A stretch of DNA of 64,000 bases from Candidatus Krumholzibacteriia bacterium (lineage in GTDB: Bacteria; Krumholzibacteriota; Krumholzibacteriia; LZORAL124-64-63). The notes beneath the pieces are model-generated. The model ran no database searches. It saw only the letters and a list, made by a program, of their open reading frames with translations, and was not told where the DNA came from. The position numbers were made by a program, and so were the translations under genes. Location: NCBI GenBank assembly GCA_041908585.1, contig JAYRFB010000236.1, positions 8,277-72,276 on the forward strand, in the 5' to 3' direction. Positions 31,453 through 52,220 of this stretch are shown piece after piece. How positions within the stretch are numbered: the first letter of the stretch is position 1; the number at the start of each line of letters is the position of its first letter.

Positions 31453-31500
31453 GGTTGATATGTCAACCATCCGCCGGAAGGGACCTGCGGATGAAGAGGC
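31453..31500 (+). repeat. 48-nt intergenic element, copy a
   Basis: GGTTGATATGTCAACCATCCGCCGGAAGGGACCTGCGGATGAAGAGGC. It has a 6-4-6 palindrome followed by a conserved tail, and lies 233 nt upstream of the secreted-protein gene. Confidence 0.8.
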
Positions 31501-31513
31501 CCTTTCTGCGGAC

Positions 31514-31527
31514 GTGCGCCGGCGCAC
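31514..31527. repeat. REP-like palindrome, GTGCGCCGGCGCAC variant
   Basis: A perfect 14-bp palindrome 14 nt after element copy a. Confidence 0.7.
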
Positions 31528-31732
31528 ACCGCTAACCGAAAGAAAAATGGCGAGATAGATCCAATGAAGGGCGCGCGGGTCGCCGCCCCATTGAAACGAC
31601 CCTATCATGTGCGAGCTTCGGCCGCTCCGCCCCAGCGGAAGCCGGCCGTTCGAGGCCGCCTGCGGGCGCGCCTCCTCCGCGCCCGCGGTTCCCCCAGCGG
31701 TCTCGTGTCCATGTCGCGACAGGAGGCCCAAG

Positions 31733-32341
31733 ATGAGATTGACCGCCATCGTATCCTGTCTGCTGCTGCTGGTGGCCGCGCCGTGCGCGCTGGCCGTCGT
31801 CGTCGGCGGGGACTTCGACAGCCAGCCCCCCGGCCCCTATACCGGCGGCGCCACCGTGCAGCCGCCCGGCTCACCCGGCGTGCAGGTCGTGCCCGACAAC
31901 CAGGGCTACGCCGGCGCGCCGAGCCTCGGCGACGGCTCGGGCAACATGCTGCGCATCGACAACCTGAGCGGCCCGGGGCCCATCACCGTCACCTTCGTCT
32001 TCTACTGCGACGTGATCCCCGACAACCTCTGCCGCATCGGGTACACCTACGCCGCCGCGGCCTGGGACATCTACTCCGGGTTCGGCGTGTACGTGGACGA
32101 TCCCACGCTCACCAACCCCGACGACCTGTGGGAGCCGCCGGTCGGCTTCCCGCCCAGCACGGTCGGGCCGGGCGACAACCACGAGAACGCCGGCGACTGC
32201 GACGGCACGACGCACACCATCACGTTCGTCGTGGCCCCGGGCACGGTCCTGCACCTGGACAACATGGCCACCGAATGCCTGGAGAACCCGGTCGGCGACG
32301 AACAGCACAGCTGGGGTGCGTTGAAGGCGTGGTACCGGTAA
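31733..32341 (+). CDS. Secreted hypothetical protein ending in SWGALKAWYR
   Basis: Start MRLTAIVSCLLLLVAAPCALA (AGGAGG upstream). 202 aa, with no motif recognised. It is flanked by copies a and b of the 48-nt intergenic element. Confidence 0.7.
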   Translation: MRLTAIVSCLLLLVAAPCALAVVVGGDFDSQPPGPYTGGATVQPPGSPGVQVVPDNQGYAGAPSLGDGSGNMLRIDNLSGPGPITVTFVFYCDVIPDNLCRIGYTYAAAAWDIYSGFGVYVDDPTLTNPDDLWEPPVGFPPSTVGPGDNHENAGDCDGTTHTITFVVAPGTVLHLDNMATECLENPVGDEQHSWGALKAWYR

Positions 32342-32342
32342 C

Positions 32343-32390
32343 GTCGATGCATCAACCATCCGCCAAGGCGGACCTGCTACGAGAGAGACC
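32343..32390 (+). repeat. 48-nt intergenic element, copy b (most diverged)
   Basis: GTCGATGCATCAACCATCCGCCAAGGCGGACCTGCTACGAGAGAGACC. It starts 2 nt after the stop of the secreted-protein gene and runs into the terminator stem. Confidence 0.7.
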
Positions 32391-32420
32391 GGCCGCGCTG
32401 CCGTAGCCGCGCGGCCGGTC
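32387..32420. terminator. Strong bidirectional-type terminator hairpin between convergent genes
   Basis: GACCGGCCGCGC-TGCCGTAGCC-GCGCGGCCGGTC gives a 12-bp perfect stem, followed by TTCCGTTTG. Confidence 0.7.
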
Positions 32421-32440
32421 TTCCGTTTGCGGCGTCCGGC

Positions 32441-33700
32441 CTAGAAGGCGGCCAGGAAGCGCATCTGCAGCACGCTGAAGTCGTAGTCGGGCGTCAGGTC
32501 GTCGCGGCGGCCCATGGCGGTCTCGCCGTTGTTGACCAGGCTGTAGTCCAGGTAGATGCGGATGTTGGCGTTGGCGTAGTAGTTCAGGCCCAGGGTGATG
32601 ATGTTCGCCGTGCCGCCCTCGATGTCCTTGTCGTCCAGGTCCAGCGTCGAGTAGCGGGCGGCCAGTTCCCAGGCGCCGCTCTCGGCCTTGGGAACCACGC
32701 GGCCGAACTCGGCGGTGGTGCTGTCGTACGGATGGGTGTCGTCGGTCAGGAAGTAGGTCGCGTAGACGTAGCCGCCGCCGAATCCCACGTCCTCCAGGTC
32801 GTCCAGACGCGTGACGCTGGCCATCATGTACTCGCCCTGGGCGTAGAAGCGCTTGTTGACGTAGGCCAGTTCGCCGCCCATGACGTTGTACTTGTCCACG
32901 TCCTCGATGTCGTCGGTGTCGGTGAACTTGACATCGCCGACGTAGCTCTCCGGACGCACGTCGAAGCGGACCTCGCCGCTGTCGAAGTCGGTCTTGCGCA
33001 GGGCCGCCGAGGCGCCCAGCAGCAGCACGCTCTCGTCGTTCCGGATGGGCGTGTAGTTGAAGCGCGCCGCGAAGTTGATGGTCTCGTCATCGTCCTTCTC
33101 GAAGTCCGCCACGTCGGCGCCGAACATCGAGGCGGCCAGGCGCCAGTCGGCGTCCCAGCGGGCGATCTCGATGCCCATGCGGCGCCCGACCACGAACGGA
33201 TCGGTGCCGAAGCTGCGCTCCATGAACACCAGGTTACGGCTGGTGAAGTTCTCCTCCAAGCCGAACGGCTGACGGAAGTTGCCGACGCGCACGTGGCCCA
33301 TGCCGTCGAAGAGGCCGCGGTAGGCCATGTAGATGTCCTTGACGGCGACCGTCTCCTCGGCGAAGTCGAAATCCGCCTCGGCGTACCAGTCGTTCCACAG
33401 CTCCGCCTTCAGCGCGAAGCGGGCCCGGCGCAGCAGCGTGCCGCCGGACATGTCCTGGATCTCCTCTTCCTCGTCCTGGTAGAGGGTCTTGTCCTCGTCC
33501 TCCATGTAGGTGGCCACGTCGATGTAGGCGCGGGCATCCACCCACCACTTGAAGGCGCCGTCGGTCGACTTCCAGACCAGGATCCCGTCCTCGCTGGCGG
33601 CCTTGAGATCCGTCTCACCCGCGGCGGCGACCAGCGGCATCGCCATGACGGCGAGCGCGACCACGACCAGGGTCAGCTTGGCGAACAACTTGCGCATCAC
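32441..33700 (-). CDS. Phosphate-selective porin O/P family outer-membrane protein
   Basis: 419 aa with a signal peptide. Family-typical segments are LLRRARFALKAEL, VGNFRQPFGLEE, GAWELAARYSTLDLDD and ITLGLNYYANANIRIYLDY. The C-terminal residue is Phe. Confidence 0.85.
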   Translation of the reverse strand: MMRKLFAKLTLVVVALAVMAMPLVAAAGETDLKAASEDGILVWKSTDGAFKWWVDARAYIDVATYMEDEDKTLYQDEEEEIQDMSGGTLLRRARFALKAELWNDWYAEADFDFAEETVAVKDIYMAYRGLFDGMGHVRVGNFRQPFGLEENFTSRNLVFMERSFGTDPFVVGRRMGIEIARWDADWRLAASMFGADVADFEKDDDETINFAARFNYTPIRNDESVLLLGASAALRKTDFDSGEVRFDVRPESYVGDVKFTDTDDIEDVDKYNVMGGELAYVNKRFYAQGEYMMASVTRLDDLEDVGFGGGYVYATYFLTDDTHPYDSTTAEFGRVVPKAESGAWELAARYSTLDLDDKDIEGGTANIITLGLNYYANANIRIYLDYSLVNNGETAMGRRDDLTPDYDFSVLQMRFLAAF

Positions 33701-33854
33701 GTTCTCTCCTTCGTTGACGTGCTACTCCGGGACCGCCGCGACGGCGACGAGCGGGGCCGACGCGCGCGATCCCACCGGGGACCTGTCTTTCGCTTGCTCC
33801 TCGGTCTGTCGTGGACGACAGGCGGCGCGGACGCCGCCGAGGACGTCCGTGTCT

Positions 33855-34661
33855 CTATCGTCGCGCCGCGGCGTCCAGCAGGCCGCGATTGAACACCAGG
33901 TACAGGACCGCCAGAGCGCCGCCTACCAGCAGCGGCAGCAGGCCGCGCCGCACGGGTCGCGCCTCGAGGCGGAACATCGCCGCGCCGGTCGGTCGCAGCA
34001 TCGGCGCCGCGATCTCGAACGTGCCGCTGTCGCCCCGGCGCCCGATCGTGAACGGCGGCTGCGGGTTCTTGTTCGAATCGAACGACGGCGTCGTGGCGCC
34101 GACGGACTCGACCAGCAGGCCGGGCGGCAGGACCAGAGCCAGCCGGAAATCCCCCAGCACGAACCGCGAGCTGTTGACCCACTCGCGCCGCAGCTTGTGC
34201 ACGCCGAACTGCGCGCGGCTGCCCTTCTCGTCGTACCAGCCCGGCACGACGGCGCGCAACACGATCGTGTCGCCAGGCGCCGCTCCCGGCAGCAGCTGCA
34301 GGTTCCAGTGGGGCATGCCGGCCACCGCCACCACGGGCAGCGGCAGGCTGTCGACGCCGGCGCCGAACGCCGCCGGGCCCCGCACGATCTGGTGGTCACG
34401 GCCGCCCCCGGTTTGCCAAGGCAGCAGGAGGTCCAACGAACCGCCTCGCCCGAGGACGACCGTGACCGAAACGATTGCGTCGCCGCGCGCGTCGACGACC
34501 AACTCGTCGCGGTACGCCGTCAGCGTATCAGCGGGAACGCCGACGGCCGGCGCCGCTGCCACCGCCGCCCGCGCGCCGCCCGCCAGCAGCAGCGCCACGA
34601 ACAGCGTGGTGGCCGACAGTGCGGCCAGCGCCAGCAGGATGCCCACGCGGCGCGCCCGCAT
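33855..34661 (-). CDS. Hypothetical bitopic membrane protein (N-terminal signal/anchor, C-terminal TM)
   Basis: 268 aa. The ATG overlaps the stop of the upstream permease (ATGA at 34661). The ectodomain is beta-rich. No motif recognised. Confidence 0.65.
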   Translation of the reverse strand: MRARRVGILLALAALSATTLFVALLLAGGARAAVAAAPAVGVPADTLTAYRDELVVDARGDAIVSVTVVLGRGGSLDLLLPWQTGGGRDHQIVRGPAAFGAGVDSLPLPVVAVAGMPHWNLQLLPGAAPGDTIVLRAVVPGWYDEKGSRAQFGVHKLRREWVNSSRFVLGDFRLALVLPPGLLVESVGATTPSFDSNKNPQPPFTIGRRGDSGTFEIAAPMLRPTGAAMFRLEARPVRRGLLPLLVGGALAVLYLVFNRGLLDAAARR

Positions 34662-36226: not shown

Positions 36227-36233
36227 GCGGCTC

Positions 36234-36695
36234 CTACCACGTCGAGAACGGCCTGGCGATCAGGTTGCTGTTGAAGTAGCGCGGATCGCCCGTCACCTCG
36301 TCGCCCACCCACTCCGGCTTGTCCACCGCCTGGTCCTCGGATTGCAGCTCGCACTCGGCCACGGTCAGGCCCTGGTTCGCGCCATGAAACTCGTCGATCT
36401 CCCAGACCAGGCCGCCGTGCGGCACCTTGTAGCGCGTCTTCTCGACCAGCGGCTGCTCGCACATCGCCAGCAGTTGCCTGGCGTCGTCCAGGGGGATCTC
36501 GTACTCGAACTCGGCGCGCGTGGCGCCCACGGTCACACCCTTGATGGTCAGCGCGGCCTTGTCGCCCATGGTGCGCACGCGGACCACGCGCTCCTTGGCG
36601 GAGTTGAGGTAGCCCTGGCGGAAGAGGGTCCCCGGCGCCAGCGCCTTGTAGGCATCGCTGCGGACCAGGTACTTGCGCTCGATCTCCTTGCCCAT
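36234..36695 (-). CDS. CYTH-domain protein (inorganic triphosphatase / class IV cyclase superfamily)
   Basis: Start MGKEIERKYLV, the canonical E-x-E-x-K motif. It continues RVRTMGDKAALTIKG...EFEYEI...VEKTRY...WEIDEF...LTVAECE. 153 aa. Confidence 0.85.
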   Translation of the reverse strand: MGKEIERKYLVRSDAYKALAPGTLFRQGYLNSAKERVVRVRTMGDKAALTIKGVTVGATRAEFEYEIPLDDARQLLAMCEQPLVEKTRYKVPHGGLVWEIDEFHGANQGLTVAECELQSEDQAVDKPEWVGDEVTGDPRYFNSNLIARPFSTW

Positions 36696-36780
36696 GCCGT
36701 CTCCTGGGGTCAGGCCCGCCGGCGGCGCGCAGGCAATCGGTTCGCGGAAGCGGCAACCCGCCCGGGCGCCACCGGTCGGC

Positions 36781-36796
36781 TGCAATGGCCGTGCCC
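36781..36796 (-). promoter_or_regulatory. Sigma-54 (-24/-12) promoter for the CYTH-DASS-unknown-porin operon
   Basis: The minus strand reads gGGCACG-GCCA-TTGCA against the consensus TGGCACG-N4-TTGCW (15 of 16 positions, correct GG-N10-GC spacing). It lies about 85 nt upstream of the CYTH start codon at 36695. Confidence 0.75.
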
Positions 36797-36869
36797 CAGG
36801 CCCCCTCCGCTGCAATCGACGGGTTGACAACGGGTTCCGAATGGTCCATGGTGCGCCGGGCACGGAGGC

Positions 36870-36962: not shown

Positions 36963-37880
36963 ATGAACAGCCGGACCAGACGATGGGCCGTCGTTGCGAT
37001 CGTGCTCGCGGTCGCCGCGGCCAGCGCAATCGTCCACGAGGGCCTGCTGGACATCCGCCGCGGGGAGGCGGCCCGCGCGCCGGCCGCGTCGCCGCCGCAC
37101 GGCGCCGGCGACGACCGCGCGGTGGTGCGTATCGGCGTCGTCTCACGCTTCGCGCCCAACCTCATCTACGCGGGCTACCAGCCGCTCATCGACTACCTCA
37201 ACGCCCATGGCCGGCGGCGCTACGAACTGCGCCCCAGCCGCGACTACCGCGACGCCGTGGAGCGGCTGCGGCGCGGCGAAGTGGCCGCTTCCTTCCTCGG
37301 CGCCTGGATCCTGCGCAGCCTCGGCCCCGCCAGTGGGCTGGAGCCGCTGCTGGGCCCGCTGAACCCGGACGGACGCAGCCGCTTTCACGATGTGCTGATC
37401 GTGCCGCGAGGTTCGGACATCCGCGGCGTCGTCGACCTGGCCGGGCGGCGCGTGGCGCTGCCCTCGGCCGATTCCTGGGCCGGCAACTGGCTGCAGACGA
37501 CCGCCCTGCCCGCGGCGGGCCTGGACGTCGCCGACCTCGATACGATCCGGCACTTCGACCACCACCAGACCGTGGTCTGGCGGGTGCTGCACGGCGAGTT
37601 CGACGCCGGCGTGGTCAAGGAGTCCGTGGCCGCGCGCTACGGAGCGGAGGGACTGCGCGTGGCGGCGCGGTCCGAGCCCATCCCCGGCCCGCCTCTGGTG
37701 GTCCGCGCGGGCGATCGCGATCCCGCGCTGGCGGAAATCCGTGCGCTGCTGCTGGCGCTGAGGCCCGATGATGCGACCGACGCCGAGGTCCTGGCCGGCT
37801 GGACTCTGGAGTTCGCCGGCGGCTTCGGCCCGGTCCACTGGGGGGACTTCGCGGCCACGCCGCCGGAGGCCCGGCCGTGA
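36963..37880 (+). CDS. PhnD-like (phosphate/phosphonate-type) periplasmic substrate-binding domain protein
   Basis: Start MNSRTRRWAVVAIVLAVAAA (anchor). VVRIGVVSRFAPNLIYAGYQPLIDYL...GEVAASFLG...DLAGRRVALPS matches the PhnD/SBP_bac_3-like pattern. Its stop overlaps the kinase start. Confidence 0.75.
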   Translation: MNSRTRRWAVVAIVLAVAAASAIVHEGLLDIRRGEAARAPAASPPHGAGDDRAVVRIGVVSRFAPNLIYAGYQPLIDYLNAHGRRRYELRPSRDYRDAVERLRRGEVAASFLGAWILRSLGPASGLEPLLGPLNPDGRSRFHDVLIVPRGSDIRGVVDLAGRRVALPSADSWAGNWLQTTALPAAGLDVADLDTIRHFDHHQTVVWRVLHGEFDAGVVKESVAARYGAEGLRVAARSEPIPGPPLVVRAGDRDPALAEIRALLLALRPDDATDAEVLAGWTLEFAGGFGPVHWGDFAATPPEARP

Positions 37881-39367
37881 CCCCCCAAGCCCCCGCGCCG
37901 GCCAGCCTGCGCACGCGAATCATGGTCACGGTCGGCGCCATCGTGGTGCTGATCACGATGCTCCTGTCGTGGGGCCTGCTCTACAGCTGGCGCGAGACGC
38001 TGGTCGCGCGCGAGGAGAGCCATGCCGTCGCGGTCAGCCGCGCCTTCTCGGTGGCGGTGATCGACGCCATGGTCTTCGCCGAGATGGACCTGCACCGCTC
38101 CGAGGGTTTCCTCGACAACTACGTCACGCTGTTCATGGCGATGGATCCCCGCCTGCGGTCGCTCACGATCCTTGATCCCGGCGGGCGCATCGTCGCCCGC
38201 AGCTGGGAGCGCGCGGAAGCGCCCTGGGTCTCGGGCGACCGCGACGCGCTCATCGCGACGACCGCGCCCCGCACGCTGATCGCCGAGCAGGACGACGGCC
38301 ACTGGGTCCTGGAAACCGTGCTGCCGATGACCACCGGCGGCCGCCGCTGGGGCACGCTGGTGCTGGGGCTGGAGGCCGATTCCATCCGTGCTTCCATCAA
38401 CCGCAGCTTCGTGCTGCTGGCGCTGCTGACTGCGGCCGTCGCCTCGATCATGCTGCTGCTGCTGTGGCTGATGCTCGGCCGGTTGCTGGGTTCGCTGCGT
38501 TCCCTGGTGCACGCCATGGACGCGGTGGCCGCCGACGGCGCCGCGGCGCCGGCGCTGCCGCCGCGCGCGGACGAGATCGGCGTCCTCTACCGCCACTTCG
38601 ATCACATGCAGAAGCGGCTGGAGGAGTCGCAGCGCGAACTGATCGGCGCCCAGGAACAGGTGTGGCACGCCGAGCGGCTGGCGGCCGTCGGCCGGCTGGC
38701 CTCGGGCATCGCCCACGAGATCAACAACCCCGTCAACGGCATCCGCAACTGCGTGTACGCCATCCGCAACGACCTGGACAACCGCGAGCAGACCCGCGAG
38801 TACTTGGCGATGATGGACGAGGGCCTGTCGCACGTGGCGGACGTCGTGCAGAAACTGTTGGACTTCGCGCGCAAGCAGCAGCCCGGGCGGCAGCCCATGC
38901 GCATCAACGACGCCGTCGGCGCCGTGGCGCGCCTGGTTTCGTTCGATCTCGAGCGCAAGGGCGCGCGGCTGGACCTTGAGCTGGCGCCGGCGCTGCCGCC
39001 GGTGCAGGCCGACCCGCAGCTGATCCGCGAGGTCTGCATGAACCTGCTGCTGAACGCGGTGGACGCGGTCGAGGCCGGCGGGCGGATCCGCGTGGCAACG
39101 CGCGCGGCGGGTCCGGCGCAGGTGGTCCTGGAGGTCGCGGACGACGGCCGGGGCATCCCGGCCGACATGCTCGGGCGCATCTTCGATCCCTTCTTCACCA
39201 CCAAGCGCACCGGCGAGGGCACCGGTCTGGGCCTGTCCATCTGCCTTGGCATTGTGCAGGCGCACGGCGGCTCCATCCGCGTGGCCAGCGAACCCGGCCA
39301 CGGCGCCACCTTCACCATCCTGCTGCCGGTCGACAACGCCGGTGACGAGGCGGGGAGCGAGACATGA
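37877..39367 (+). CDS. Sensor histidine kinase (two TM, periplasmic domain, HAMP-like, HisKA, HATPase_c)
   Basis: 496 aa. The H-box is [12 protein letters not shown], the N-box is NLLLNAVDA, and the G-boxes are DDGRGIP and [10 protein letters not shown]. Confidence 0.9.
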
Positions 39368-40704
39368 GGATTCTGCTGGTCGAGGACGAGCGCATGACGC
39401 GCGTGGCGCTGACCGGGACGCTGCGCAAGGCCGGCTACGAGGTCACGCCCTGCGCCGACGGCGACGCCGGGCTGGCGGCGCTCAACGCCGGAGCGTTCGA
39501 CATCGTGCTGACGGACCTGAGCCTGCCGGGCGCCGACGGACTGGCCATCCTGGCACGCGCGAAGCAGACCAGCCCCGACACCAAGGTGGTGATCATGACC
39601 GCCTACGCGTCGACGGAGACGGCGGTGGCGGCGCTGCGCCAGGGCGCCTATGACTACCTGACCAAGCCGTTCCAGCCGGAGGACCTGCTCAACCGCGTCG
39701 GCCACCTGGCGCGGCTGCGCACGGTCGAACTGGAGAACCGCGCGCTGAAGCGACACCTGACCGGACTGGCCGAGCGGCCGATCATCGGCGGTTCGCGCGC
39801 CATGGAACAGGTGCGACGCACGATCGAGACCATCGCCCCGGGCGACCACACGGTGCTGATCCTGGGCGCCAGCGGCACCGGCAAGGAACTGGCCGCGCGC
39901 GCGATCCACGACCGCTCCGCGCGGGCCGCAGGCCCGTTCGTGGCCATCAACTGCGCTGCCATCCCCGAGACGCTACTGGAGAGCGAGCTGTTCGGCCACC
40001 GCCGCGGCGCCTTCACCGGCGCCGAACGCGACCACGCCGGCTACTTCGCGCGCGCGCAGGGCGGGACGCTGTTCATCGACGACATCGACGACCTGCCGCT
40101 GGGCATCCAGGTCAAGCTGCTGCGCGTGATCCAGGAGCGCGAGATCGAGCCGGTGGGCGCCGGGCGGTCCGTGACGATCGATATCCGTCTGATCACCGCC
40201 ACGAAGGCGGATCTGGCGCGGCTTGTTGCCGAGCGTCGCTTCCGCGAGGACCTCTACTACCGCCTGAACGTGATCCCGCTGCGGCTGCCCGAGCTGCGCG
40301 AGCGCCGGGAGGACATCCCGGCGCTGGTGGAGCATTTCGTGGGCCGGCGCGGCCGTGTCGACGACCTCCTGCTGGACCGGGAGCGCTTCGCCGTGCTGAT
40401 GGCCCACGACTGGCCGGGCAACGTGCGCGAACTGGAGAACGTGGTCGAGCGCATGCTGGCGCTGCCCGGCATTCCGGTGCACGAGCTGTTCGACGCCCCC
40501 CTGCGGCGGCCCGCCGGCGCTCCCGTCGGCGCCACCCTGGACGGCGGCGTCGAATTGCCCAGCTACGTGACGTACATGCAGGATTGCGAGGACCGGCTCC
40601 TGCGGGACGTGATGGTCCGCTCGGGCGGCAACATCTCGGCCGCGGCGAAGCTGCTGGGGCTCCCGCGCTCGACGCTGCGCAGCAAGCTGGAGAAGCGCGG
40701 CTGA
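39364..40704 (+). CDS. Sigma-54-dependent response regulator, NtrC family
   Basis: 446 aa with a receiver domain (VLTDLSLPGADG). The AAA+ domain has GASGTGKE and the sigma-54 contact loop GAFTGA. A C-terminal Fis-type HTH is present (AAAKLLGLPRSTLRSKL). Confidence 0.95.
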   Translation: MRILLVEDERMTRVALTGTLRKAGYEVTPCADGDAGLAALNAGAFDIVLTDLSLPGADGLAILARAKQTSPDTKVVIMTAYASTETAVAALRQGAYDYLTKPFQPEDLLNRVGHLARLRTVELENRALKRHLTGLAERPIIGGSRAMEQVRRTIETIAPGDHTVLILGASGTGKELAARAIHDRSARAAGPFVAINCAAIPETLLESELFGHRRGAFTGAERDHAGYFARAQGGTLFIDDIDDLPLGIQVKLLRVIQEREIEPVGAGRSVTIDIRLITATKADLARLVAERRFREDLYYRLNVIPLRLPELRERREDIPALVEHFVGRRGRVDDLLLDRERFAVLMAHDWPGNVRELENVVERMLALPGIPVHELFDAPLRRPAGAPVGATLDGGVELPSYVTYMQDCEDRLLRDVMVRSGGNISAAAKLLGLPRSTLRSKLEKRG

Positions 40705-45844: not shown

Positions 45845-45932
45845 GGGTGAGGGCCTTTCGGGGGGTGACGCCGTTCAGCAGGGCGCACCATTTATACAGT
45901 GTATCGGGTTGCGCGGCCAGTGGCGGGCACGA

Positions 45933-46544
45933 TCAGATGTACTTGCGATACAGGCCCAGCTCTTCCATCCGGTAGGCGATGGTGCGCTCGTTGGCATTCA
46001 TTCTCCTGGCGATCTCCCGGAAGATCGTCGGCCACTCGACTTCCAGGAGCGGAGTCAGTTCGATGCCATGAGCCTTGACAATCCCAACGACATCGTCCGC
46101 CGTCGCCTCGAGCAGGCGCCCGGGAGCGATCAGGGCGCCCGCGAACAAATGGGCCTGGGACTCAAGCCTGCCATATGCCGCGGTGCCGATCCTGCGACGA
46201 AAGGCCTCGAATTCGGCGCGGGTCCTGTGTGTGGCTGCGGCAAACACCTGCCGATGCAGAACAAGATGGCCAACCTCATGCGCAAGCGTGTAGTTGTACC
46301 AGGCGGGATCGCGGAGAGTGATCTCCCGATCAACGAAGACCTGCCTGCAACCCCCCGCCACGAAGGCGTGCACCGAAGTGGTCCGGTAGAGTTCATCGGC
46401 GACGACGATCTCGATGTCGAAGATGGACTCGAGGACGTAATCGGCCTCAACGGGCGCGTCGCCGAGTTCGTGCTCATCGAGCAGAGCTTCCGCGCGGGCA
46501 AAGATGTCATCCTTGGTGATCCACGGAACGTCGATGGGATCCAA
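45933..46544 (-). CDS. ImmA/IrrE-family zinc metallopeptidase (COG2856-like)
   Basis: 203 aa. The HEXXH motif is in YTLAHEVGHLVLH. It lies 1 nt after the XRE gene. Its G/C-ending codon bias is lower than in core genes. Confidence 0.85.
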   Translation of the reverse strand: MDPIDVPWITKDDIFARAEALLDEHELGDAPVEADYVLESIFDIEIVVADELYRTTSVHAFVAGGCRQVFVDREITLRDPAWYNYTLAHEVGHLVLHRQVFAAATHRTRAEFEAFRRRIGTAAYGRLESQAHLFAGALIAPGRLLEATADDVVGIVKAHGIELTPLLEVEWPTIFREIARRMNANERTIAYRMEELGLYRKYI

Positions 46545-46545
46545 A

Positions 46546-46902
46546 TCAGGACCTCTTGATGATCTCGATCAACTTGTCGACTGTCTCGTCACCGACCTTT
46601 TCGCCGCGGATGCTGCGCATCACCGCCGGCAGGAGCTCCATCGCCTGCTCGTCGGTGAGGAGATCCGGCGGGATCGTTCCGGCTTCGACGTGCCCAAGGT
46701 CAAGGAACGCTGACTTCTCAGAGCCCTCGAGCCCAAGTGCCTCGGCGAGCCGGGACCGGAATTCCTCGCCGGGCAGCTTGATACGGCCGCGCTCGATCTT
46801 GGAGATCAGCGCCGGATCGAAGTCGTTCTCCACGCAGAATCTCCGGAGCCCCATCCCTCGGGCCAGTCGTGCCTCCCTGCACCTCTCGCCGAATTTCGAC
46901 AT
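46546..46902 (-). CDS. XRE-family helix-turn-helix transcriptional regulator
   Basis: 118 aa. FGERCREARLARGMGLRRFCVENDFDPALISKIERG is a Cro/C1-type HTH. It lies upstream of the ImmA-like gene. Confidence 0.85.
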   Translation of the reverse strand: MSKFGERCREARLARGMGLRRFCVENDFDPALISKIERGRIKLPGEEFRSRLAEALGLEGSEKSAFLDLGHVEAGTIPPDLLTDEQAMELLPAVMRSIRGEKVGDETVDKLIEIIKRS

Positions 46903-46949
46903 GGCTGTCCCCTTCCCCTTATGATGCCGATGGCCACGTCGTCGGCATC

Positions 46950-46988
46950 TGTTGTCATTATTTTACAACACCCATCAAGCGATGGCAA
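46950..46988 (-). promoter_or_regulatory. Promoter of the XRE-ImmA pair with overlapping operator palindrome
   Basis: The minus strand reads TTGCCA-N17-TAAAAT. The inverted repeat TGTTGT-N9-ACAACA (46950..46970) covers the -10 box. A second inverted repeat, GATGCCGA-N11-TCGGCATC (46923..46949), lies in the leader. Confidence 0.6.
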
Positions 46989-47043
46989 GGTGGTTCGGGA
47001 GATTTTGGCGCAATTGCGGAACGAAGCCCGGAATCTGTTGGTT

Positions 47044-48795
47044 TCAATTGGGATTGCGCGCCCAGACCAGACGAAGCAGGTCATCCAGCTCGCCCCCCGC
47101 GCCAAGCTCCGGGTCCTTTGCGAGCAGCTCCCTCAGCCTCCCGCCAGTTCTTTCATCCCGTGAATACGCCAGATACACGGCCATCTCGAACGCCAATCGC
47201 GGCCGCACGGCTTCGCAGGCCGCCAGCGCCCGGAAACGTTCCGCCGACTGCTCCGGCGCGAAGTAGCGGAGCTCGTAGCGCGCGATCAACTCCGCATGCT
47301 CGGGCGCGCGGCGCACGACCAACGTCGACACGTAATCGCTGTAGACCCAGGCCCACGCGTCCTGCGGGAACAGACGGGTCAGTTCCCCGACGCTCCCGGC
47401 GAACCCGTAGTCGATGTCCCATGCGGCCAGCGCATCCGGATCGCGCACGAACCGGGTAGGATCCCCGAACACCGGCGGCAGGTTGTACTGGAAGATGGGC
47501 CGCTCCGGCGCCAGCGCATACGCCAGGTAGCCACCGAGATTCGCGTTGTTGTACATGTGACCGCTCAGCCCCAGTGCACCGGCGAAGCGCGCCGAGCCGG
47601 CCGGCACCAGCGCCTCGTTGAGGCCGACGCCGAAGGCTGTGGGTGATGGGAGCGTGTAGGTGCCGTCGCCGGCCGTGCCGCCGGACATCCGGCCGAACTT
47701 CTCCCAGGCACCGACGCAGACCACGATAGCGCATCCCGCCGCGATCAGCGCCGCGCCAAGGTTCGTTCGCCATCGCGGCTGTGCGGCGCCCGCGGGCGGC
47801 GCGGCGTGTCTGGCGATGATCGGCACCAACGCGATGGCCGCCACAGCCGCCAGCCGGTTGTAACGCAGCGCGCCGAGTGCGAATGCGGCGAAGAGCGCCC
47901 ACTCCGTGAGGTCGAATTCCCAGCGATCGACCACGAGCAGCGTCAGGGCCCACAGCAGCAGGAACAGCAGCGGGAGCCAGTCCGCAGGAGCGCTCCAGAT
48001 CGGCTGCAGCTCGCCGATCCTGTCCGCACCGCGGAGACCGCCGGCCAGGACCAGGAAATGGCCATAGGATCGCGGGCCATAGGGATTCGCGAGCATGATC
48101 GCCAAGGTGAACGCGTACCAGCCGCCGAGGCTCGCCAGCCTCCTGCCATCCATCGCGCCGGCGCGCCATGCCGGGACTAGGCGCTTCGCGCCTTCGGCGG
48201 CGACCACCACGGAGAAGTAGGCCAGGCCGAGCACGGCCCCGTGCAGCCAGTCCCAGACGAGCATCATGATCGGGATCGTCCACAGACGGCCGCGATGATC
48301 GCCGCCTCTCCGGTGGGCATCGAGCGCCAGGCCCAGGATCGCCATCCCCAGCAGCGTGAAGAGTTCGGGACGGACCTGGAACCGGCGAATCCCGGCCAGG
48401 GCGGTGAATGCGCAGAGGAGTGCTGCGGTGCGGTTGCCGGCCCCGGCGCCACGCGTCGTGTGGAACAGAACCGCAATGGCCGCGGCCGAGATCGCCCACT
48501 TCAGCGCCAGCAACCCGTTCGCGCCGTACCGGTCCCACACGGAAAAGAGCGCGATCTGGCCCAGCCACTCGTGGTTCACGAATGGCGTTCCCCGATGGGT
48601 GAAAGAGAACAGCTCCTCGTTGACGATCCGTCCCTGCTTGAGCATCGCGCGGCCGTTGGCCAGGTGCCAGTACAGGTCACAATCGAAGACGGGATAAGTC
48701 ACGATAACCAGAGCGAGCGCAACGGCCAGAATGGCCCACGGGAAGGCAGACAGGCGCGCCGCGGCGGCTGGTGCCGGCATTGTCTTCTGAATCAA
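47044..48795 (-). CDS. Large polytopic membrane protein, possibly a GT-C-type glycosyltransferase
   Basis: 583 aa with 12 or more hydrophobic segments. An early loop contains FDCDLYWHLANG (acidic loop as in GT-C enzymes). A soluble C-terminal domain of about 170 aa follows. Function is inferred only. Confidence 0.7.
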   Translation of the reverse strand: MIQKTMPAPAAAARLSAFPWAILAVALALVIVTYPVFDCDLYWHLANGRAMLKQGRIVNEELFSFTHRGTPFVNHEWLGQIALFSVWDRYGANGLLALKWAISAAAIAVLFHTTRGAGAGNRTAALLCAFTALAGIRRFQVRPELFTLLGMAILGLALDAHRRGGDHRGRLWTIPIMMLVWDWLHGAVLGLAYFSVVVAAEGAKRLVPAWRAGAMDGRRLASLGGWYAFTLAIMLANPYGPRSYGHFLVLAGGLRGADRIGELQPIWSAPADWLPLLFLLLWALTLLVVDRWEFDLTEWALFAAFALGALRYNRLAAVAAIALVPIIARHAAPPAGAAQPRWRTNLGAALIAAGCAIVVCVGAWEKFGRMSGGTAGDGTYTLPSPTAFGVGLNEALVPAGSARFAGALGLSGHMYNNANLGGYLAYALAPERPIFQYNLPPVFGDPTRFVRDPDALAAWDIDYGFAGSVGELTRLFPQDAWAWVYSDYVSTLVVRRAPEHAELIARYELRYFAPEQSAERFRALAACEAVRPRLAFEMAVYLAYSRDERTGGRLRELLAKDPELGAGGELDDLLRLVWARNPN

Positions 48796-48959
48796 ATCCG
48801 CGCTGAACTATTCCATGCCCCGGAACCGCATGCCCCGCTGATCCGGATCCCCATTCTCCCGCCGATGCCGCCCTGAATGCCCCTGCGCGACGTGTCGGGA
48901 ATGGGATGTGGGGTGACGTTATGCCGAACGAGGCCGAATTGTCAATGCGCCCCGGCGAT

Positions 48960-49009
48960 GGTTGATAGGTCAACCAGCCGCCGGAACGGACCTGCGAACA
49001 GAGAGAGCC
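48960..49009 (+). repeat. 48-nt intergenic element, copy c
   Basis: GGTTGATAGGTCAACCAGCCGCCGGAACGGACCTGCGAACAGAGAGAGCC. It ends 10 nt before the csoR stop codon. Confidence 0.8.
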
Positions 49010-49018
49010 CGCCGCCGC

Positions 49019-49360
49019 CTACCGCGAATACTTGAACATCAGGTCCACCAGCTCGTCATAAGTCGCCTCCGCCGCCTCCTCGCTGACGCGCACCGCCGCC
49101 GCCGCGCAGTGCTTGAGGTGGTTGCGCATCAGTTCGCGGCCCACCGCGCGCAGCGCCTCCTGCACCGACGAGACCTGTGCCAGGATGTCGGGGCAGTAGC
49201 GGTCCTCCTCGACCATCCGCTGCAGGCCGCGCACCTGGCCCTCGATGCGGCGCAAGCGTTTGAGATTGCGGTCGCGGATGGCGGGGTCGACCGCTACGGC
49301 CTTGCGGTCGCCTTCCGCGGCGCCGGCGCCGCACTGGTCCCCGTTGTTCTCGTGCTTCAT
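49019..49360 (-). CDS. csoR: CsoR/RcnR-family metal-sensing repressor (copper type)
   Basis: Start MKHENNGDQ (GGGAGAG upstream). LKRLRRIEGQVRGLQRMVEEDRYCPDILAQV...HLKHC carries the C-H-C ligand pattern. Confidence 0.9.
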   Translation of the reverse strand: MKHENNGDQCGAGAAEGDRKAVAVDPAIRDRNLKRLRRIEGQVRGLQRMVEEDRYCPDILAQVSSVQEALRAVGRELMRNHLKHCAAAAVRVSEEAAEATYDELVDLMFKYSR

Positions 49361-49395
49361 CCCGATCTCTCCCTGTTGCGGGCCGGGGCCCGCGT

Positions 49396-51579
49396 TCACG
49401 CCGCCAGCGGCCCGGCCCCGCGCCGCAGCCGCAGCGAGTTGGCCACCACGCTCACCGAACTGAAGGCCATCGCCGCGCCGGCCAGGACCGGCGACAGCAG
49501 CAGGCCGAAGGCCGGGAACAGCAGCCCGGCCGCGACGGGGATCCCCGCCGCGTTGTAGAGGAACGCCCAGAACAGGTTCTGCTTCATGACGCGCATCGTC
49601 TGCCGCGAGAGCGCGATGGCATCCGCGACGCCGGAAAGATCGGCGCGCATCAGAGCGATGTCGCTGGCCTCGACGGCGATGTCCGCGCCCGCGCCCATGG
49701 CGATGCCCACGTCGGCCTGCGCCAGCGCCGGCGCGTCGTTGACGCCGTCGCCGACCATCGCCACCACGTGGCCGGCCGCCTGCAGGCGCTTCACTTCGGC
49801 GACCTTGCCCTCGGGCATGACGCCGGCCACGACGTCATCGATGCCGGCGGCGCGGGCCACGGCGCGCGCCGTGCGTTCGTTGTCGCCGGTGAGCATGATC
49901 ACCTGCAGGCCCAGCCGCCGCAACCGCGCCACGGCCGCCGGCGAGGTGGCGCGCACAGGGTCGGCCACCGCGACCAGCCCGGCCGGCTGCCCGTCGACCG
50001 CCACGTGGACCGGCGTCCAGCCCGCGGCTGCGAACCGTTCGGCTTCGGCGCGCAGCGGCGCGGCGTCGACCGCGTGCTCGCGCAGCATGGCCTCGTTGCC
50101 CACCAGCACCTCGCGCCCGCCCACGCGCCCGCGCGCGCCGCGCCCGGTGACCGAGTCGAAGCCCTCGGCAGGCGGCAGGGACAGGCCGCGGGCCGTCGCG
50201 TGGGCGACGATCGCCTCGGCCAGCGGGTGCTCGGACGACTTCTCCAGCGCGGCGGCCAGCCGCAGCAGCTCGTCCTCACCGGTCGACGCGGACAAGGTGG
50301 CGATCGCGGTCACCGCCGGCCGCCCCTCGGTGATGGTGCCGGTCTTGTCCAGCACCACCGCCGTCACGCCGCCGGCGCGCTGCAGCGCCACGCCGCCCTT
50401 GATCAGGACACCTTGCCGCGCGCCGCGGCCGGTGGCCACCATCAATGCGGTGGGCACCGCCAGGCCCATCGCGCACGGGCAGGCGATGATCAGCACCGCG
50501 ACCGCGGCCGCGAGCCCGCGCGCAAGCGGCGCCGCGTCCGCCGCCACGAACCACACCGCGAACGTGACGACGGCCAGCTGCAGCACCACCGGCACGAACA
50601 CCGCGCTGATGCGGTCGGCCAGGCGCTGGATGGGGGCCTGCGAGCCCTGCGCGTCGCGCATCAGGCGGACGATCCGGGCCAGCACGCTGTCCTCGCCGAC
50701 GGTCGTCGCGCGGTAGCGGAAGGCGCCGGTGCGGTTGATGGTCCCGCCGATCACGGGGCTGCCCACAGCCTTGGCCACGGGCACGGACTCGCCGGTGAGC
50801 ATCGACTCGTCGACGGCGCTCGCGCCGGACACCACCTCGCCGTCGACGGGCACGCGCTCGCCCGGGCGCACCAGGACCTGGTCGCCCGCGACGACCTCGC
50901 CGACGACCACGTCGAGCTCGCGCCCGTCGCGCGCGACGCGCGCCATCGCCGGCTGCAGGTCCGCCAGCGCGCGCAGGGCCGCGGTCGTCTGCCGCCGCGC
51001 CCTCGCCTCCAGCGCGTTGCCGGCCAGCACCAGAGCGATGATGAAGACGATCGCCTCGTAGTACACGTCCGGCTGCAGGCCGCGCGCCCGGAAGAAGCCC
51101 GGCCACAGCGTGGCCAGCGCCGAGTACGCGAACGCAGCCCCCGTGCCGACCGCCACCAGCGTGTTCATGTCGGCCGCGTGGTGGCGGAAGGCCGTCCACG
51201 CGCGCGTGTAGAAGTGCCGGCCGCCGCGCAGCATCACGGCCAGGCTCAGCGCCAGCAGGACGTAGCTGAGCGCGCCGGCCGGGATCGCGTAGAGCCACGG
51301 CGCCGCCGACTGCAGGCCCGGCGAGAGCCAACCCATCGCCCAGGTCATGAACGGATCGGCGGCGCCGCCGTGTCCGCCGTGCCCGCCGCCCATCAGCGGC
51401 ATCGACAGGAGCATCGCCAGCGCGGCCGCGACGAGACTCTCGCCGGCCAGCCGCCGCAGGTGCCGGTACTCGGCGATCTGCGCGCGGTCCTGCGCTTCCT
51501 GCTCGGCCACGGCGCTGCGCGCATTCAAGTGCGCTCCCGACGCGCAGCACGCCTTGTTGGTGATTGTCGAGTCGTTCAT
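49396..51579 (-). CDS. copA: Copper-translocating P1B-type ATPase
   Basis: 727 aa with CPC in TM6 ([13 protein letters not shown]), DKTGTIT and [10 protein letters not shown]. No GMxCxxC HMA domain is present. The N-terminus has only a CC pair. Confidence 0.95.
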
Positions 51580-51582
51580 CGC

Positions 51583-51972
51583 TCACGCCTCCTGTTCCAC
51601 GACGACGAGCCGGCCCTTGAGCATGCCCATGCCGCAGGTGAAGGCGAAGGTGCCGGCCTGCTGCGGCAGCAGCTCGATCGTGGTGCGGTCGAACGCGGGC
51701 AGGAACCGCTTCACGCCAAGGTCGGGGAAGACGACTTCTTCCGAGCAGGCGGACGACTCCTGCCGGTCGAAGGTGATGCGGACCGGCACGCCGCGGCGCA
51801 CCTGGACCGCCGCGGGCTCGTAGCCGCCGCGCACGGCGACGGTGATGCTCTGGACCTGCCCCTCGGCCAGGGCAGCGGCCGCCGGCCGGCGCCGGCTCAG
51901 GAAGAAGTACCGGTTGATCCACGCGATCGCCGCGAGCGAGGCCGCGATGACGATGATTTCGTTCTGCGACAT
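51583..51972 (-). CDS. Membrane-anchored cupredoxin-like domain protein
   Basis: 129 aa with an N-terminal TM helix, then ITVAVRGGYEPAAVQVRRGVPVRITFDRQESSACSEEVVFPDLG...FTCGMGMLKG. This is typical of the small cupredoxin_1 proteins found in front of copA. Confidence 0.8.
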   Translation of the reverse strand: MSQNEIIVIAASLAAIAWINRYFFLSRRRPAAAALAEGQVQSITVAVRGGYEPAAVQVRRGVPVRITFDRQESSACSEEVVFPDLGVKRFLPAFDRTTIELLPQQAGTFAFTCGMGMLKGRLVVVEQEA

Positions 51973-52003
51973 GGGGTTACCTCCAAGACTGGTCTATTGC
52001 CAA

Positions 52004-52020
52004 ATACCCACAAGGGGTAT
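52004..52020. promoter_or_regulatory. CsoR operator (ATACCC-N5-GGGTAT)
   Basis: ATACCCACAAGGGGTAT lies 32-48 nt upstream of the cupredoxin-copA-csoR operon start. It closely resembles the published CsoR boxes of the TACCC..GGGGTA type. Confidence 0.75.
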
Positions 52021-52049
52021 AACCACAAAGGCAATATACATACCCCATC

Positions 52050-52065
52050 CCCCTATCGCAAGGGG
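52050..52065. promoter_or_regulatory. Second G/C-tract inverted repeat (CCCCT-N6-AGGGG), possible auxiliary CsoR site
   Basis: Read directly. It is preceded by the half-site ATACCCC at 52040. Confidence 0.4.
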
Positions 52066-52112
52066 TGAAGTTCAATGACCGCCGCCGCGGCGGGGCGGCG
52101 GCCTGGGGGGCG

Positions 52113-52126
52113 TTGCGCCGGCACAA
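52113..52126. repeat. REP-like palindrome, one-mismatch variant TTGCGCCGGCACAA
   Basis: It lies between the CsoR operators and element copy d. Confidence 0.6.
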
Positions 52127-52171
52127 GCCCCCCCCCTGCCCGCACTCCTCGCGGGCTCCGCCGCGGAGATC

Positions 52172-52220
52172 GTTGATACATCAACCATCTGCCGGAAAGT
52201 GACTGCGAAGAGCGAGACCG
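52172..52220 (+). repeat. 48-nt intergenic element, copy d
   Basis: GTTGATACATCAACCATCTGCCGGAAAGTGACTGCGAAGAGCGAGACCG. It lies about 107 nt beyond the CsoR operators of the copper operon. Confidence 0.8.

What the first reader, a model, noticed from the sequence alone, without database searches (positions are those of the whole stretch)
31453..52220. Conserved 48-nt intergenic element whose same-orientation copies bracket discrete gene units
Four clear copies (31453, 32343, 48960, 52172) share the core GGTTGA-N4-TCAACC-A(T/G)C(C/T)GCC(GG/AA). The tail diverges more: ..GGACCTGCGAA in copies a and c, GTGACTGCGAA in copy d, GGACCTGCTAC in copy b, then ..AGAGAGA. All four are on the plus strand regardless of neighbouring gene direction.

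They form two brackets. Copies a and b enclose the single secreted-protein gene, with b starting 2 nt after its stop. Copies c and d enclose the complete cupredoxin-copA-csoR operon with its CsoR operators, with c ending 10 nt before the csoR stop.

Each copy is preceded within 2-5 nt by a different short GC palindrome (TCCGCGGA, TACCGGTA, CGCC-CC-GGCG, CTCCGC-C-GCGGAG). Two weaker relatives sit at 23837 and 61857.

Direct repeats flanking self-contained units suggest recombination sites (cassette boundaries of att/attC type) or an unrecognised structured element. I know of no described motif with this sequence.
Basis: seen in the sequence. Interest (0 to 1): 0.72.

Follow-up and report, generated by a model that had tools for sequence, protein, structure and literature searches.

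The report
Conserved palindromic intergenic repeat element
A 48-base non-coding element built around a 16-base palindrome is real and is kept in related uncultured bacteria; it is most likely a docking site for a DNA-binding protein, and it has not been shown to be a site where gene cassettes are cut and pasted.

Summary
The four copies exist as described, all on the + strand, and are far beyond chance. The window is a 70% G+C metagenome scaffold from an FCB-group bacterium, probably Krumholzibacteriota.

Relatives carry nine more copies at syntenic intergenic spots. GTTGA-N4-TCAAC is nearly invariant among them. A GCGA(A/C)NAGAGAGA box lies a fixed 19 nt downstream, and the flanks are unalignable. 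There is no base-pair covariation, no Rfam match, and no integrase or transposase gene nearby.

In a second lineage the same palindrome occurs as four boxes, in two 55-bp-spaced pairs, flanking a syntenic MarR gene. This resembles the MexR operator (inverted GTTGA, two boxes).

Best reading (about 0.42): an operator-type binding site for a winged-helix dimer, inside an oriented ~50-bp unit copied to several joints of a very variable, defence-gene-rich neighbourhood.

The cassette or att reading is only partly supported. In its favour, the copies share one orientation and sit at synteny breaks, and relatives have one copy where the window has c, the copper operon and d. Against it, attC architecture is not met, the central spacers differ between copies, other indel joints lack the element, and the 202-aa gene is syntenic with or without copies. 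REP-like, RNA and promoter readings remain as minor rivals.

The parts
31453..31499 (+). Copy a: palindrome GGTTGA-TATG-TCAACC (31453-31468) plus tail CATCCGCCGGAAGGGACCTGCGGATGAAGAGG. It lies between the DUF294 gene stop (31394) and the 202-aa gene.
   Evidence: An orthologous copy is present in L031 (8317) but absent from L027-29, L025 and L024.
32342..32389 (+). Copy b: CGTCGA-TGCA-TCAACC (one arm mismatch) plus tail ending AGAGAGA. It starts 2 nt after the stop of the 202-aa gene.
   Evidence: Orthologous copies occur in L024 (4704) and L034 (9008). L025 keeps only AGAGAGA plus the hairpin.
32387..32428 (.). G+C-rich hairpin GACCGGCCGCGC...GCGCGGCCGGTC followed by TTCCGTTT. It is a terminator-like stem shared by the convergent 202-aa and porin genes and abuts the AGAGAGA of copy b.
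   Evidence: It is conserved, with a different loop sequence, in L025.
48960..49007 (+). Copy c: GGTTGA-TAGG-TCAACC plus tail ...CTGCGAACAGAGAGAG. It lies between the start side of the 578-aa/CapH/CapP-like operon (- strand) and the csoR stop (49019).
   Evidence: No orthologue was seen, because the flanking modules are absent from L031, L032, L034 and L029.
52171..52217 (+). Copy d: CGTTGA-TACA-TCAACC plus tail ...CTGCGAAGAGCGAGA. It lies in the divergent spacer between the cupredoxin-copA-csoR operon and the ClpX-like AAA+ gene, about 20-30 nt left of the conserved AAA+ leader (which starts at 52238-52252).
   Evidence: Orthologues: L001 2611 (region 92% identical), L031 9708, L032 9613.
23835..23876 (+). 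Possible decayed copy e: ATTGACCGGTCAAC plus a diverged tail with GCGAG 3 nt further out than in the other copies. It sits next to the remnant of a truncated gene.
   Evidence: nhmmer E 0.12 on +, 0.0018 on - through the palindrome. Its centre CCGG matches the relatives' consensus.

Best explanation
The element is a double-stranded-DNA protein-binding site. Its core is a 16-22-bp palindrome, (G)AT(G/C)GTTGA-N4-TCAAC(C)AT(C), of the kind bound by a dimeric winged-helix or HTH regulator. The best candidate is a MarR-family protein encoded elsewhere in the genome.

The palindrome sits inside an oriented unit of about 50 bp (palindrome, 19 nt, then GCGA(A/C)NAGAGAGA). That unit has been copied, by local duplication or gene conversion, into several non-coding joints of a rapidly rearranging neighbourhood rich in defence and metal-resistance genes.

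Shown: the copies, their conservation, their orientation and their positions. Inferred: that a protein binds them, the identity of the binder, and how the copies spread. The role of the oriented tail is unexplained.
For: 1. Conservation. Twenty-one copies were aligned or read across at least 8 genomes. The arms GTTGA/TCAAC are invariant except for three single changes, and the central 4 nt are free (TATG, TGCA, TAGG, TACA, CCGG, CAGG, CTTG, TGGA, CGTA). The flanks are unalignable.

2. No RNA signal. None of the 5 predicted pairs covaries, and there is no Rfam match even at E<=1. This points to recognition of sequence rather than of structure.

3. The second lineage. In L038-L047 and L048 (MarR 74% identical), the same palindrome occurs as four boxes in two pairs spaced 55 bp apart. 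One pair lies upstream of a syntenic MarR gene and the other between MarR and the NUDIX gene. No other copy occurs in 19.8 kb or 14.6 kb, and the boxes are the best-conserved islands of those spacers.

4. A known parallel. MexR, a MarR-family repressor, recognises two boxes, each holding inverted GTTGA separated by 5 bp (bioRxiv 10.1101/2024.04.02.587325).

5. The half-site extension AT-N-GTTGA is shared by both lineages.

6. All copies are intergenic.

7. Low copy number. The strict pattern matches all 4 window copies and 1 of the 9 relatives' copies (L034_b). It hit only one locus among 185,579 species genomes, the orthologue of d. The element is therefore not a high-copy repeat.
Against: - Three of the roughly seven independent positions lie between convergent genes (b, y, e), where an operator has no obvious promoter to act on.
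- Copies a and d lie outside the conserved leaders of the 202-aa and AAA+ genes, and relatives that keep those genes intact lack them.
- A plain operator does not explain the conserved oriented tail, or the fixed 19-nt spacing kept in 11 of 13 copies.
- It does not explain why all copies of this lineage share one orientation.
- It does not explain why tails of different window copies resemble each other more than their own orthologues do (W_a to W_c 76% against W_a to L031_a 56%).
- No candidate binder is encoded in the window.
- Binding by the MarR protein is inferred from position only.
Confidence: 0.42

Rival explanations
1. The copies are recombination sites that delimit exchangeable gene modules. 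A recombinase encoded elsewhere acts at or beside the palindrome, so segments are inserted or deleted between same-orientation copies, as in a cassette array or attL/attR pair.
For: - All copies share one orientation at about 7 independent positions.
- Either side of a copy can vary while the copy stays. For b the left side (202-aa gene) is constant and the right side is porin, CYTH or something else. For y the right side (SSF) is constant and the left is the 231-aa gene or AAA+. For d the right side (AAA+) is constant and the left is the copper operon or the 141-aa gene.
- L031 and L032 have a single copy where the window has c, the copper operon and d.
- In L028 and L029 the 202-aa gene is joined to the AAA+ leader through a decayed copy, so the 20 kb between b and d is missing.
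- The palindrome abuts a stop codon in W_b and L036_y, so the break is exactly at its left edge.
- The 578-aa/CapH/CapP module to the left of c has a deviant G+C content, 0.65.
Against: - No recombinase is found in the window or in the relatives' loci.
- The central 4 nt differ among all four window copies, which is incompatible with tyrosine- or serine-recombinase strand exchange between them.
- c and d are no more alike than other pairs.
- Other indel joints lack the element.
- The L034 arrangement needs deletions that are not bounded by copies.
- The L031 joint still holds a remnant of the 141-aa gene, so it is not a clean b-by-d product.
- The copies are old and diverged (about 60-80% identical).
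- Any conserved non-coding site in a rearranging region would appear to sit 'at joints'.
Confidence: 0.17
2. It is a low-copy selfish or duplicative intergenic repeat of the REP/REPIN or MITE kind. It would be spread by a transposase encoded elsewhere (RAYT, IS200/IS605 or IS110-type) or by template switching, and tolerated mainly at gene 3' ends.
For: - Presence/absence polymorphism at orthologous sites.
- All copies are intergenic, and most are beside gene 3' ends or terminator hairpins.
- In L018-L020 a block of about 135 nt, holding two inverted copies 39 nt apart (a REPIN-like doublet), lies in three different gene contexts at about 93-95% identity. An IS110-family transposase fragment lies about 130 nt away in L018.
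- Tails are similar between copies within one genome.
- The three single-arm variants would all be G.U or G.T pairs on the minus strand, a weak hint of a single-stranded form.
Against: - Copy number is very low, with only one locus in the GTDB-wide scan.
- There are no target-site duplications, no terminal inverted repeats, and no linked transposase.
- The palindrome is invariant across two lineages whose flanks and neighbouring genes share nothing, whereas REP sequences usually differ between close species.
- The doublet upstream of MarR is syntenic and conserved down to 74% protein identity.
- The L018 copy of the block carries about 70 nt of MarR coding sequence. That looks like a segmental duplication, not transposition of a defined element.
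Confidence: 0.17
3. It is an RNA element. A 5' hairpin, a single-stranded stretch and a purine run ahead of a terminator would form a 3'-UTR element or small RNA, or a terminator accessory on the minus strand.
For: - A composite of the element followed by a G+C hairpin occurs in b, in y (four genomes), in a, in L034_b and in L031_x.
- AGAGAGA is otherwise absent from the window.
- The spacing is fixed.
- On the minus strand, TCTCTCT directly follows the terminator hairpin of the porin gene.
Against: - There is no covariation, and the stem is only 5-6 bp and invariant.
- There is no Rfam match.
- c and d have no downstream hairpin.
- No promoter-like site is found.
- The element lies on the sense side of some neighbouring genes and the antisense side of others.
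Confidence: 0.1
4. It is a promoter for an alternative (ECF-type) sigma factor, with the palindrome as an overlapping operator. TCAACC would be the -35 element, GCGAAG the -10 region, and transcription would start in AGAGAGA.
For: - It has a bipartite, oriented design with fixed spacing.
- AAC is the typical core of ECF -35 elements (own knowledge).
- An ECF sigma operon lies at 54884-56154.
- a and d point at the 202-aa and AAA+ genes.
Against: - The spacing from AAC to CGA is 20 nt, against the usual 16-17 (own knowledge).
- b, c, y and e point into convergent genes or straight into terminators.
- No similar motif lies upstream of the ECF operon itself.
- Relatives without a or d keep the conserved leaders.
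- The sigma-54 option is excluded. The GG-to-GC spacing is wrong, and the only good sigma-54 site in the window is at 36796-36781.
Confidence: 0.07

Closest known systems
MarR-family operators, especially the MexR PI/PII boxes of Pseudomonas aeruginosa
   Same: Both have inverted GTTGA half-sites. The boxes come in pairs next to the regulator gene, as seen in the L038/L048 lineage. The centre is free, and recognition is of sequence rather than structure.
   Different: The spacer is 4 bp here against 5 bp in MexR. In the window's lineage the copies are single, lie far from promoters or between convergent genes, and carry an oriented 30-nt tail. No MarR gene is in the window, and binding has not been tested.
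REP / BIME / REPIN elements (RAYT-mobilised extragenic palindromes)
   Same: Both are short intergenic palindromes that occur as singlets and as inverted doublets. Both sit beside gene 3' ends, show presence/absence polymorphism, and have an IS110-family element next to one doublet.
   Different: This element has very few copies and no RAYT. Its core is conserved across distant lineages, and orthologous copies are kept at syntenic sites.
Integron attC sites and CALIN arrays; pdif modules
   Same: Both are same-orientation repeats between gene units. Gene content between them varies among relatives, and GTTGAY / RTCAAC loosely resemble the R' (GTTRRRY) and R'' (RYYYAAC) boxes.
   Different: Here the boxes are adjacent and in the order R'-R'', not at the two ends of a 57-141-nt bulged hairpin. 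There is no IntI. The units range from 0.9 to 16.6 kb and include whole operons in both directions. There is no 11-6-11 Xer-type site.
Polar replication terminators (B. subtilis Ter/RTP) and parS clusters
   Same: Both are low-copy, clustered, intergenic protein-binding palindromes. Ter sites are asymmetric and co-oriented and are bound by a winged-helix dimer (own knowledge).
   Different: There is no sequence similarity. No canonical parS is found within 3 mismatches. There is no GC-skew switch in the window. The density of copies is much higher than for known Ter sites. This option is pure speculation.

Membership tests
Integron attC site | R'' (RYYYAAC) and R' (GTTRRRY) lie at the two ends of a 57-141-nt imperfect palindrome with L''/L' boxes and extrahelical bases. 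| tested here: not met
   The inverted boxes are 4 nt apart and in the order GTTGAY then RTCAAC. The predicted stem is 5-7 bp, and extended arm pairing is not general. HattCI and IntegronFinder were not available.
Integron attC site | An integron integrase (IntI) lies nearby, or there is a dense array of short cassettes (CALIN). | tested here: not met
   No integrase was found in the 64 kb or in the relatives' loci. Spacings between copies are 0.9, 16.6 and 3.2 kb and enclose complete operons.
Xer dif / pdif site | Two 11-bp arms flank a 6-8-bp central region, and the centre is identical between recombining partners. | tested here: not met
   The half-sites are about 9 bp around a 4-bp centre, and the centres differ in all four window copies.
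REP/REPIN | Tens to hundreds of copies per genome. | tested here: inconclusive
   The strict pattern gave one locus in 185,579 species genomes. In about 190 kb of related DNA there is about one copy per 12 kb, but clustered. No complete-genome census was possible.
REP/REPIN | An associated RAYT (Y1 transposase) is flanked by copies. | tested here: not met
   None is present in the sequence held (the Pfam calls listed above).
REP/REPIN | Inverted doublets with a short spacer. | tested here: met
   L018, L019 and L020 carry two inverted 23-nt copies 39 nt apart within a shared block of about 135 nt. This was not seen in the window's own lineage.
MarR-family operator | A 16-20-bp palindrome, often in two boxes, lies in the regulator's own promoter region. 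| tested here: met
   In the L038 and L048 lineage only. Two boxes lie with their centres 56-111 nt upstream of the MarR start codon, two more lie before the next gene, and all are conserved at 74% protein identity.
MarR-family operator | The cognate regulator binds the site. | not testable with these tools
   This needs EMSA or DAP-seq. No MarR homologue is in the window.
Structured RNA (an Rfam family or a new motif) | A match to a covariance model, or covarying base pairs. | tested here: not met
   No Rfam match at gathering score or at E<=1. None of the 5 pairs covaries among 12 copies.
Intrinsic terminator | A G+C-rich stem followed by a T run. | tested here: not met
   The scan found none at the copies. 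The palindrome is not followed by a T run on either strand. A separate hairpin follows b and y.
Sigma-54 promoter or enhancer-binding-protein site | GG-N10-GC with TGGCAC-N5-TTGC, downstream of an upstream activating palindrome. | tested here: not met
   The GG-to-GC spacing in the tail is 9 nt. No sigma-54-like site follows any copy, and the only good one is at 36796-36781.
parS | The palindrome TGTTNCACGTGAAACA. | tested here: not met
   There are no matches within 3 mismatches, and the element shares only 8 of 16 positions with it.

The most novel reading that the evidence does not exclude
The copies are junction sites of a recombination system with no linked integrase. This system would shuffle whole gene modules (copper resistance, a CapH/CapP-regulated defence-like gene, transporters) into one hotspot between the 202-aa gene and the ClpX-like gene in an uncultured FCB-group phylum. 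The palindrome would be the protein-binding core, and the oriented tail would fix polarity.
Probability: 0.15. Interest if true: 0.8.

Novelty: new member of a known kind. Interest (0 to 1): 0.42.

Why it matters
If the palindrome is an operator, it defines a conserved recognition sequence, and part of a regulon, for a MarR-type regulator in a phylum with no cultured members. It would also show binding sites being copied together with about 30 nt of flanking sequence.

If instead it marks recombination joints, it would be a module-shuffling system without a known recombinase, sitting in a hotspot that carries defence and metal-resistance genes. That would be of wider interest.

Either way, the element gives a precise marker for a hypervariable chromosomal region that can be followed across metagenome-assembled genomes.

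Tried and rejected
- Rfam at gathering score and at E<=1: nothing at the copies.
- tRNA/tmRNA scan: none.
- Plasmid collection: no similarity for the 24-kb region beyond conserved genes, and only chance hits (E=3) for the element consensus.
- Viral contigs: three chance hits in coding DNA.
- The other 15 of the 18 metagenome pattern hits look like chance matches (L005 perhaps weakly related), because only L018-20 share the full 23-nt core.
- Exact-protein look-up of the 244-aa ORF failed because the true gene is 202 aa.
- Sigma-70 promoter and intrinsic terminator scans: none at the copies.
- Sigma-54: rejected.
- ECF autoregulation: no motif upstream of the ECF operon.
- parS: rejected.
- Extended arm pairing beyond the 16-22-bp palindrome: mean self score 2.1 against a background of 2.4, so rejected as a family feature.
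- Upstream GC palindromes as part of the element: rejected.
- Conserved small ORF across the element on either strand: none, by reading the frames.
- CapH (the XRE-family protein next to c) as the binder: unlikely, because relatives with copies lack capH/capP nearby.
- Literature search for TTGACCGGTCAA: no paper.

Full report
**Observation**

Reading the four sites confirms the shared sequence GGTTGA-N4-TCAACC-A(T/G)C(C/T)GCC...CTGC...AGAGAGA at 31453, 32342, 48960 and 52171, all on the + strand. A degenerate pattern gives 7 hits, which are the four copies plus three reverse-strand hits to the palindromes of a, c and d, against 0.2 expected. None of 100 shuffles reached this. An nhmmer profile of the four copies finds no further copy in the window at E<1. 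The heptamer AGAGAGA occurs twice in the whole window on both strands, both times inside copies.

Gene calling by third-position G+C, together with Pfam, gives the following setting:
- the DUF294 gene, ending at 31394
- copy a
- the 202-aa secreted-protein gene, 31733-32341
- copy b
- a terminator hairpin
- the porin O/P gene on the - strand
- about 13 kb of transporter and two-component genes
- TerC, a CapP-like M78 peptidase, a CapH-like XRE protein and a 578-aa protein, all on the - strand
- copy c
- csoR, copA and cupredoxin, all on the - strand
- copy d
- a ClpX-like AAA+ gene, 52393-54006

No integrase, transposase or ParB is encoded anywhere in the 64 kb.

**Source**

The window is an ENA metagenome scaffold (ERZ28614577, scaffold_326) with 70% G+C. 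It carries type IX secretion sorting domains. One homologue of the 202-aa protein is labelled Candidatus Krumholzibacteria, and the closest genome hit is labelled Fibrobacteraceae. The organism is therefore an FCB-group bacterium, probably Krumholzibacteriota.

**Copies in relatives**

A strict pattern scan of 185,579 species genomes returned a single locus. That locus is the orthologue of copy d in a region 92% identical to the window. I then fetched the contexts of homologues of the 202-aa and AAA+ proteins and searched them with profiles. This found nine more copies, all pointing the same way when the AAA+ gene is placed on the + strand:
- L031_a, between the DUF294 gene and the 195-aa gene
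- L024_b and L034_b, after the 202-aa gene
- L031_x and L032_d, between a divergent 141-aa gene and AAA+
- four 'y' copies (L031, L032, L036, L037) beside the 3' end of an SSF transporter gene

In most of these the palindrome is the perfect GGTTGACCGGTCAACC. This makes the window's ATTGACCGGTCAAC at 23836 a plausible decayed copy. The site at 61857 is not supported.

**Anatomy**

Across 12-17 aligned copies:
- GTTGA and TCAAC are invariant apart from three single changes.
- The central four bases are free.
- The half-site extends to (G)AT(G/C)GTTGA.
- CATCCGCC follows in most copies.
- A box GCGA(A/C)NAGAGAGA starts exactly 19 nt after AAC in 11 of 13 copies, although the intervening bases differ.

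Orthologous spacers are otherwise unalignable, so the element is under constraint.

RNAalifold predicts only the 5-bp hairpin, with no covarying pair. Rfam has nothing even at E<=1.

In a and c they pair with the tail, but arm pairing beyond the palindrome is no better than background across the family.

**A second lineage**

The metagenome scan found three contigs, L018-L020, that carry GGTTGATAGGTCAACCATCTGCC as an inverted pair 39 nt apart, inside a shared block of about 135 nt. Fetching the contexts of the adjacent MarR gene showed a conserved chromosomal locus: TopoVI-B, TopoVI-A, MarR, NUDIX. Exactly four palindromes occur there. Two are 55 bp apart upstream of MarR, and two are 55 bp apart between MarR and NUDIX. 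None occurs elsewhere in 19.8 kb or 14.6 kb.

In L048, whose MarR is 74% identical, the boxes are the best-conserved islands of those spacers, with free centres. This is the classical picture of an autoregulated winged-helix repressor with paired operators. MexR recognises two boxes, each holding inverted GTTGA separated by 5 bp.

In L018 and L020 the block lies in other contexts. L018 carries about 70 nt of MarR coding sequence along with it and has an IS110-family transposase fragment about 130 nt away. This looks more like segmental duplication than transposition of a defined element.

**Are the copies cassette boundaries?**

blastn maps of relatives against the window show a mosaic. The 202-aa module (31572-32340) is present in every relative that covers that region (L024, L025, L029, L034; only a short stretch matches in L031) and ends exactly at its stop codon. 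The AAA+ module starts at 52238-52252 in all. What lies between them varies:
- nothing (L029; a 141-aa gene remnant in L031)
- the CYTH gene only (L034)
- about 20 kb (the window)

The stretch 45864-52237, which holds CapP, CapH, the 578-aa gene, copy c, the copper operon and copy d, is missing from L032, L031, L034 and L029. L031 and L032 have one copy upstream of AAA+ where the window has two copies flanking the copper operon. In L028 and L029 the 202-aa gene is joined to the AAA+ leader through a decayed copy. For b, d and y, one side of the copy is constant while the other side varies between genomes. These facts keep a recombination reading alive.

Against that reading:
- Other indel joints in the window have no copy.
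- The L034 arrangement needs deletions that are not bounded by copies.
- The L031 joint is not a clean b-by-d product.
- Copy a is absent from five relatives that keep both flanking genes.
- The central spacers of the four window copies all differ.
- c and d are no more alike than other pairs.
- No recombinase is present in any locus.
- attC and dif architectures are not met.

**Other readings**

- The element is not a sigma-70 promoter or an intrinsic terminator.
- It is not a sigma-54 site.
- It is not parS.
- An ECF-type promoter is possible in geometry. However, the spacing is long, four positions point into convergent genes, and the nearby ECF operon lacks the motif.
- An RNA reading is suggested by the recurrent composite of element plus downstream hairpin (b, y, a, L034_b, L031_x). 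It has no covariation support.
- A REP/REPIN-like reading fits the doublets, the polymorphism and the preference for gene 3' ends. It does not fit the very low copy number or the deep conservation of the core.

**Unexplained features**

- Tails partly cluster by position (y copies 68-82%; b copies 71-79%) and partly by genome (W_a is closest to W_c at 76% and only 56% to its orthologue L031_a).
- All four window copies share a derived T after GTTGA where the relatives have C.
- Together these suggest gene conversion, re-seeding of sites, or co-evolution with the binding protein.
- The uniform orientation is also unexplained. About 7 independent positions agree, roughly p = 0.02-0.03.

**Verdict**

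This is a real, conserved element that I could not find described, and it is specific to this lineage. The best-supported mechanism is an operator-type protein-binding palindrome embedded in an oriented unit of about 50 bp that has been copied among the joints of a hypervariable region (confidence about 0.4). A whole-genome census, read-level junction searches and a binding assay would settle the question.

Noticed in passing
window 4076, 10614, 23801, 26687, 31515, 54050, 58564, 61720 and variants: The 12-bp palindrome TGCGCCGGCGCA occurs 13 times against 2.2 expected. Most copies lie just after stop codons, often in pairs about 35 nt apart (23762/23801, 54016/54050, 58535/58564). It also lies next to the element in relatives. 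It is probably the usual terminator-like hairpin of this lineage, or a second repeat family.
   Followed up: partly
window 31572-31732: The 202-aa secreted-protein gene has a leader of about 160 nt that is nearly invariant in six relatives while everything upstream is unalignable. The invariant stretch reads ...GAGGCCGCCTGCGGGCGCGCCTCC...CAGCGGTCTCGTGTCCATGTCGCGACAGGAGG. It is a candidate cis-regulatory leader.
   Followed up: no
window 52238-52392: The ClpX-like AAA+ gene has a leader of about 150 nt conserved in seven genomes. It starts with ATATACNGTATGTATCCCC and contains the hairpin GGGACC-N12-GGTCCC. Looser TATAC.GT.TAT motifs lie upstream of TerC (45888) and the ECF operon (about 56285), but only one site matches within 3 mismatches.
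   Followed up: partly
window 45933-48780 (- strand): This is an operon of a 578-aa protein with no known domain, a CapH-like XRE repressor and a CapP-like M78 peptidase (PADLOC). Its G+C content is 0.65 against about 0.71 for its surroundings, and it is absent from relatives. It looks like an acquired defence module controlled by CapH/CapP.
   Followed up: partly
window 62147-63658 and 28204-29565: These are strong matches to PADLOC candidate defence families PDC-S27 (E 7e-188) and PDC-S01 (an AAA_14/DUF4143 ATPase, E 4e-47). The neighbourhood is rich in defence-candidate genes.
   Followed up: no
window 36781-36796 (- strand): A near-consensus sigma-54 promoter, GGGCACGGCCATTGCA, lies upstream of the CYTH and Na/sulfate symporter genes. 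It is next to a histidine kinase and a sigma-54-dependent response regulator at 37877-40704.
   Followed up: no
window 23862-24104 (- strand): This 80-aa ORF is 81% identical at the DNA level to the 3' part of a 357-aa gene in L031. It is therefore a gene remnant at a rearrangement joint, directly beside the possible decayed copy e.
   Followed up: no
L032 9745-9815: About four tandem copies of CATCACAAGTCAYTNG are inserted between the element and the AAA+ leader.
   Followed up: no
L036 about 9690-9790: A run of roughly 100 C residues lies upstream of the AAA+ gene in GCA_016718425.1. It is probably an assembly artefact.
   Followed up: no
L018 3401-3661; L048 723-1823: IS110-family transposase genes occur in the MarR-box lineage. 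The one in L018 lies about 130 nt from the inverted doublet, and the one in L048 lies 8 kb from the MarR locus.
   Followed up: partly
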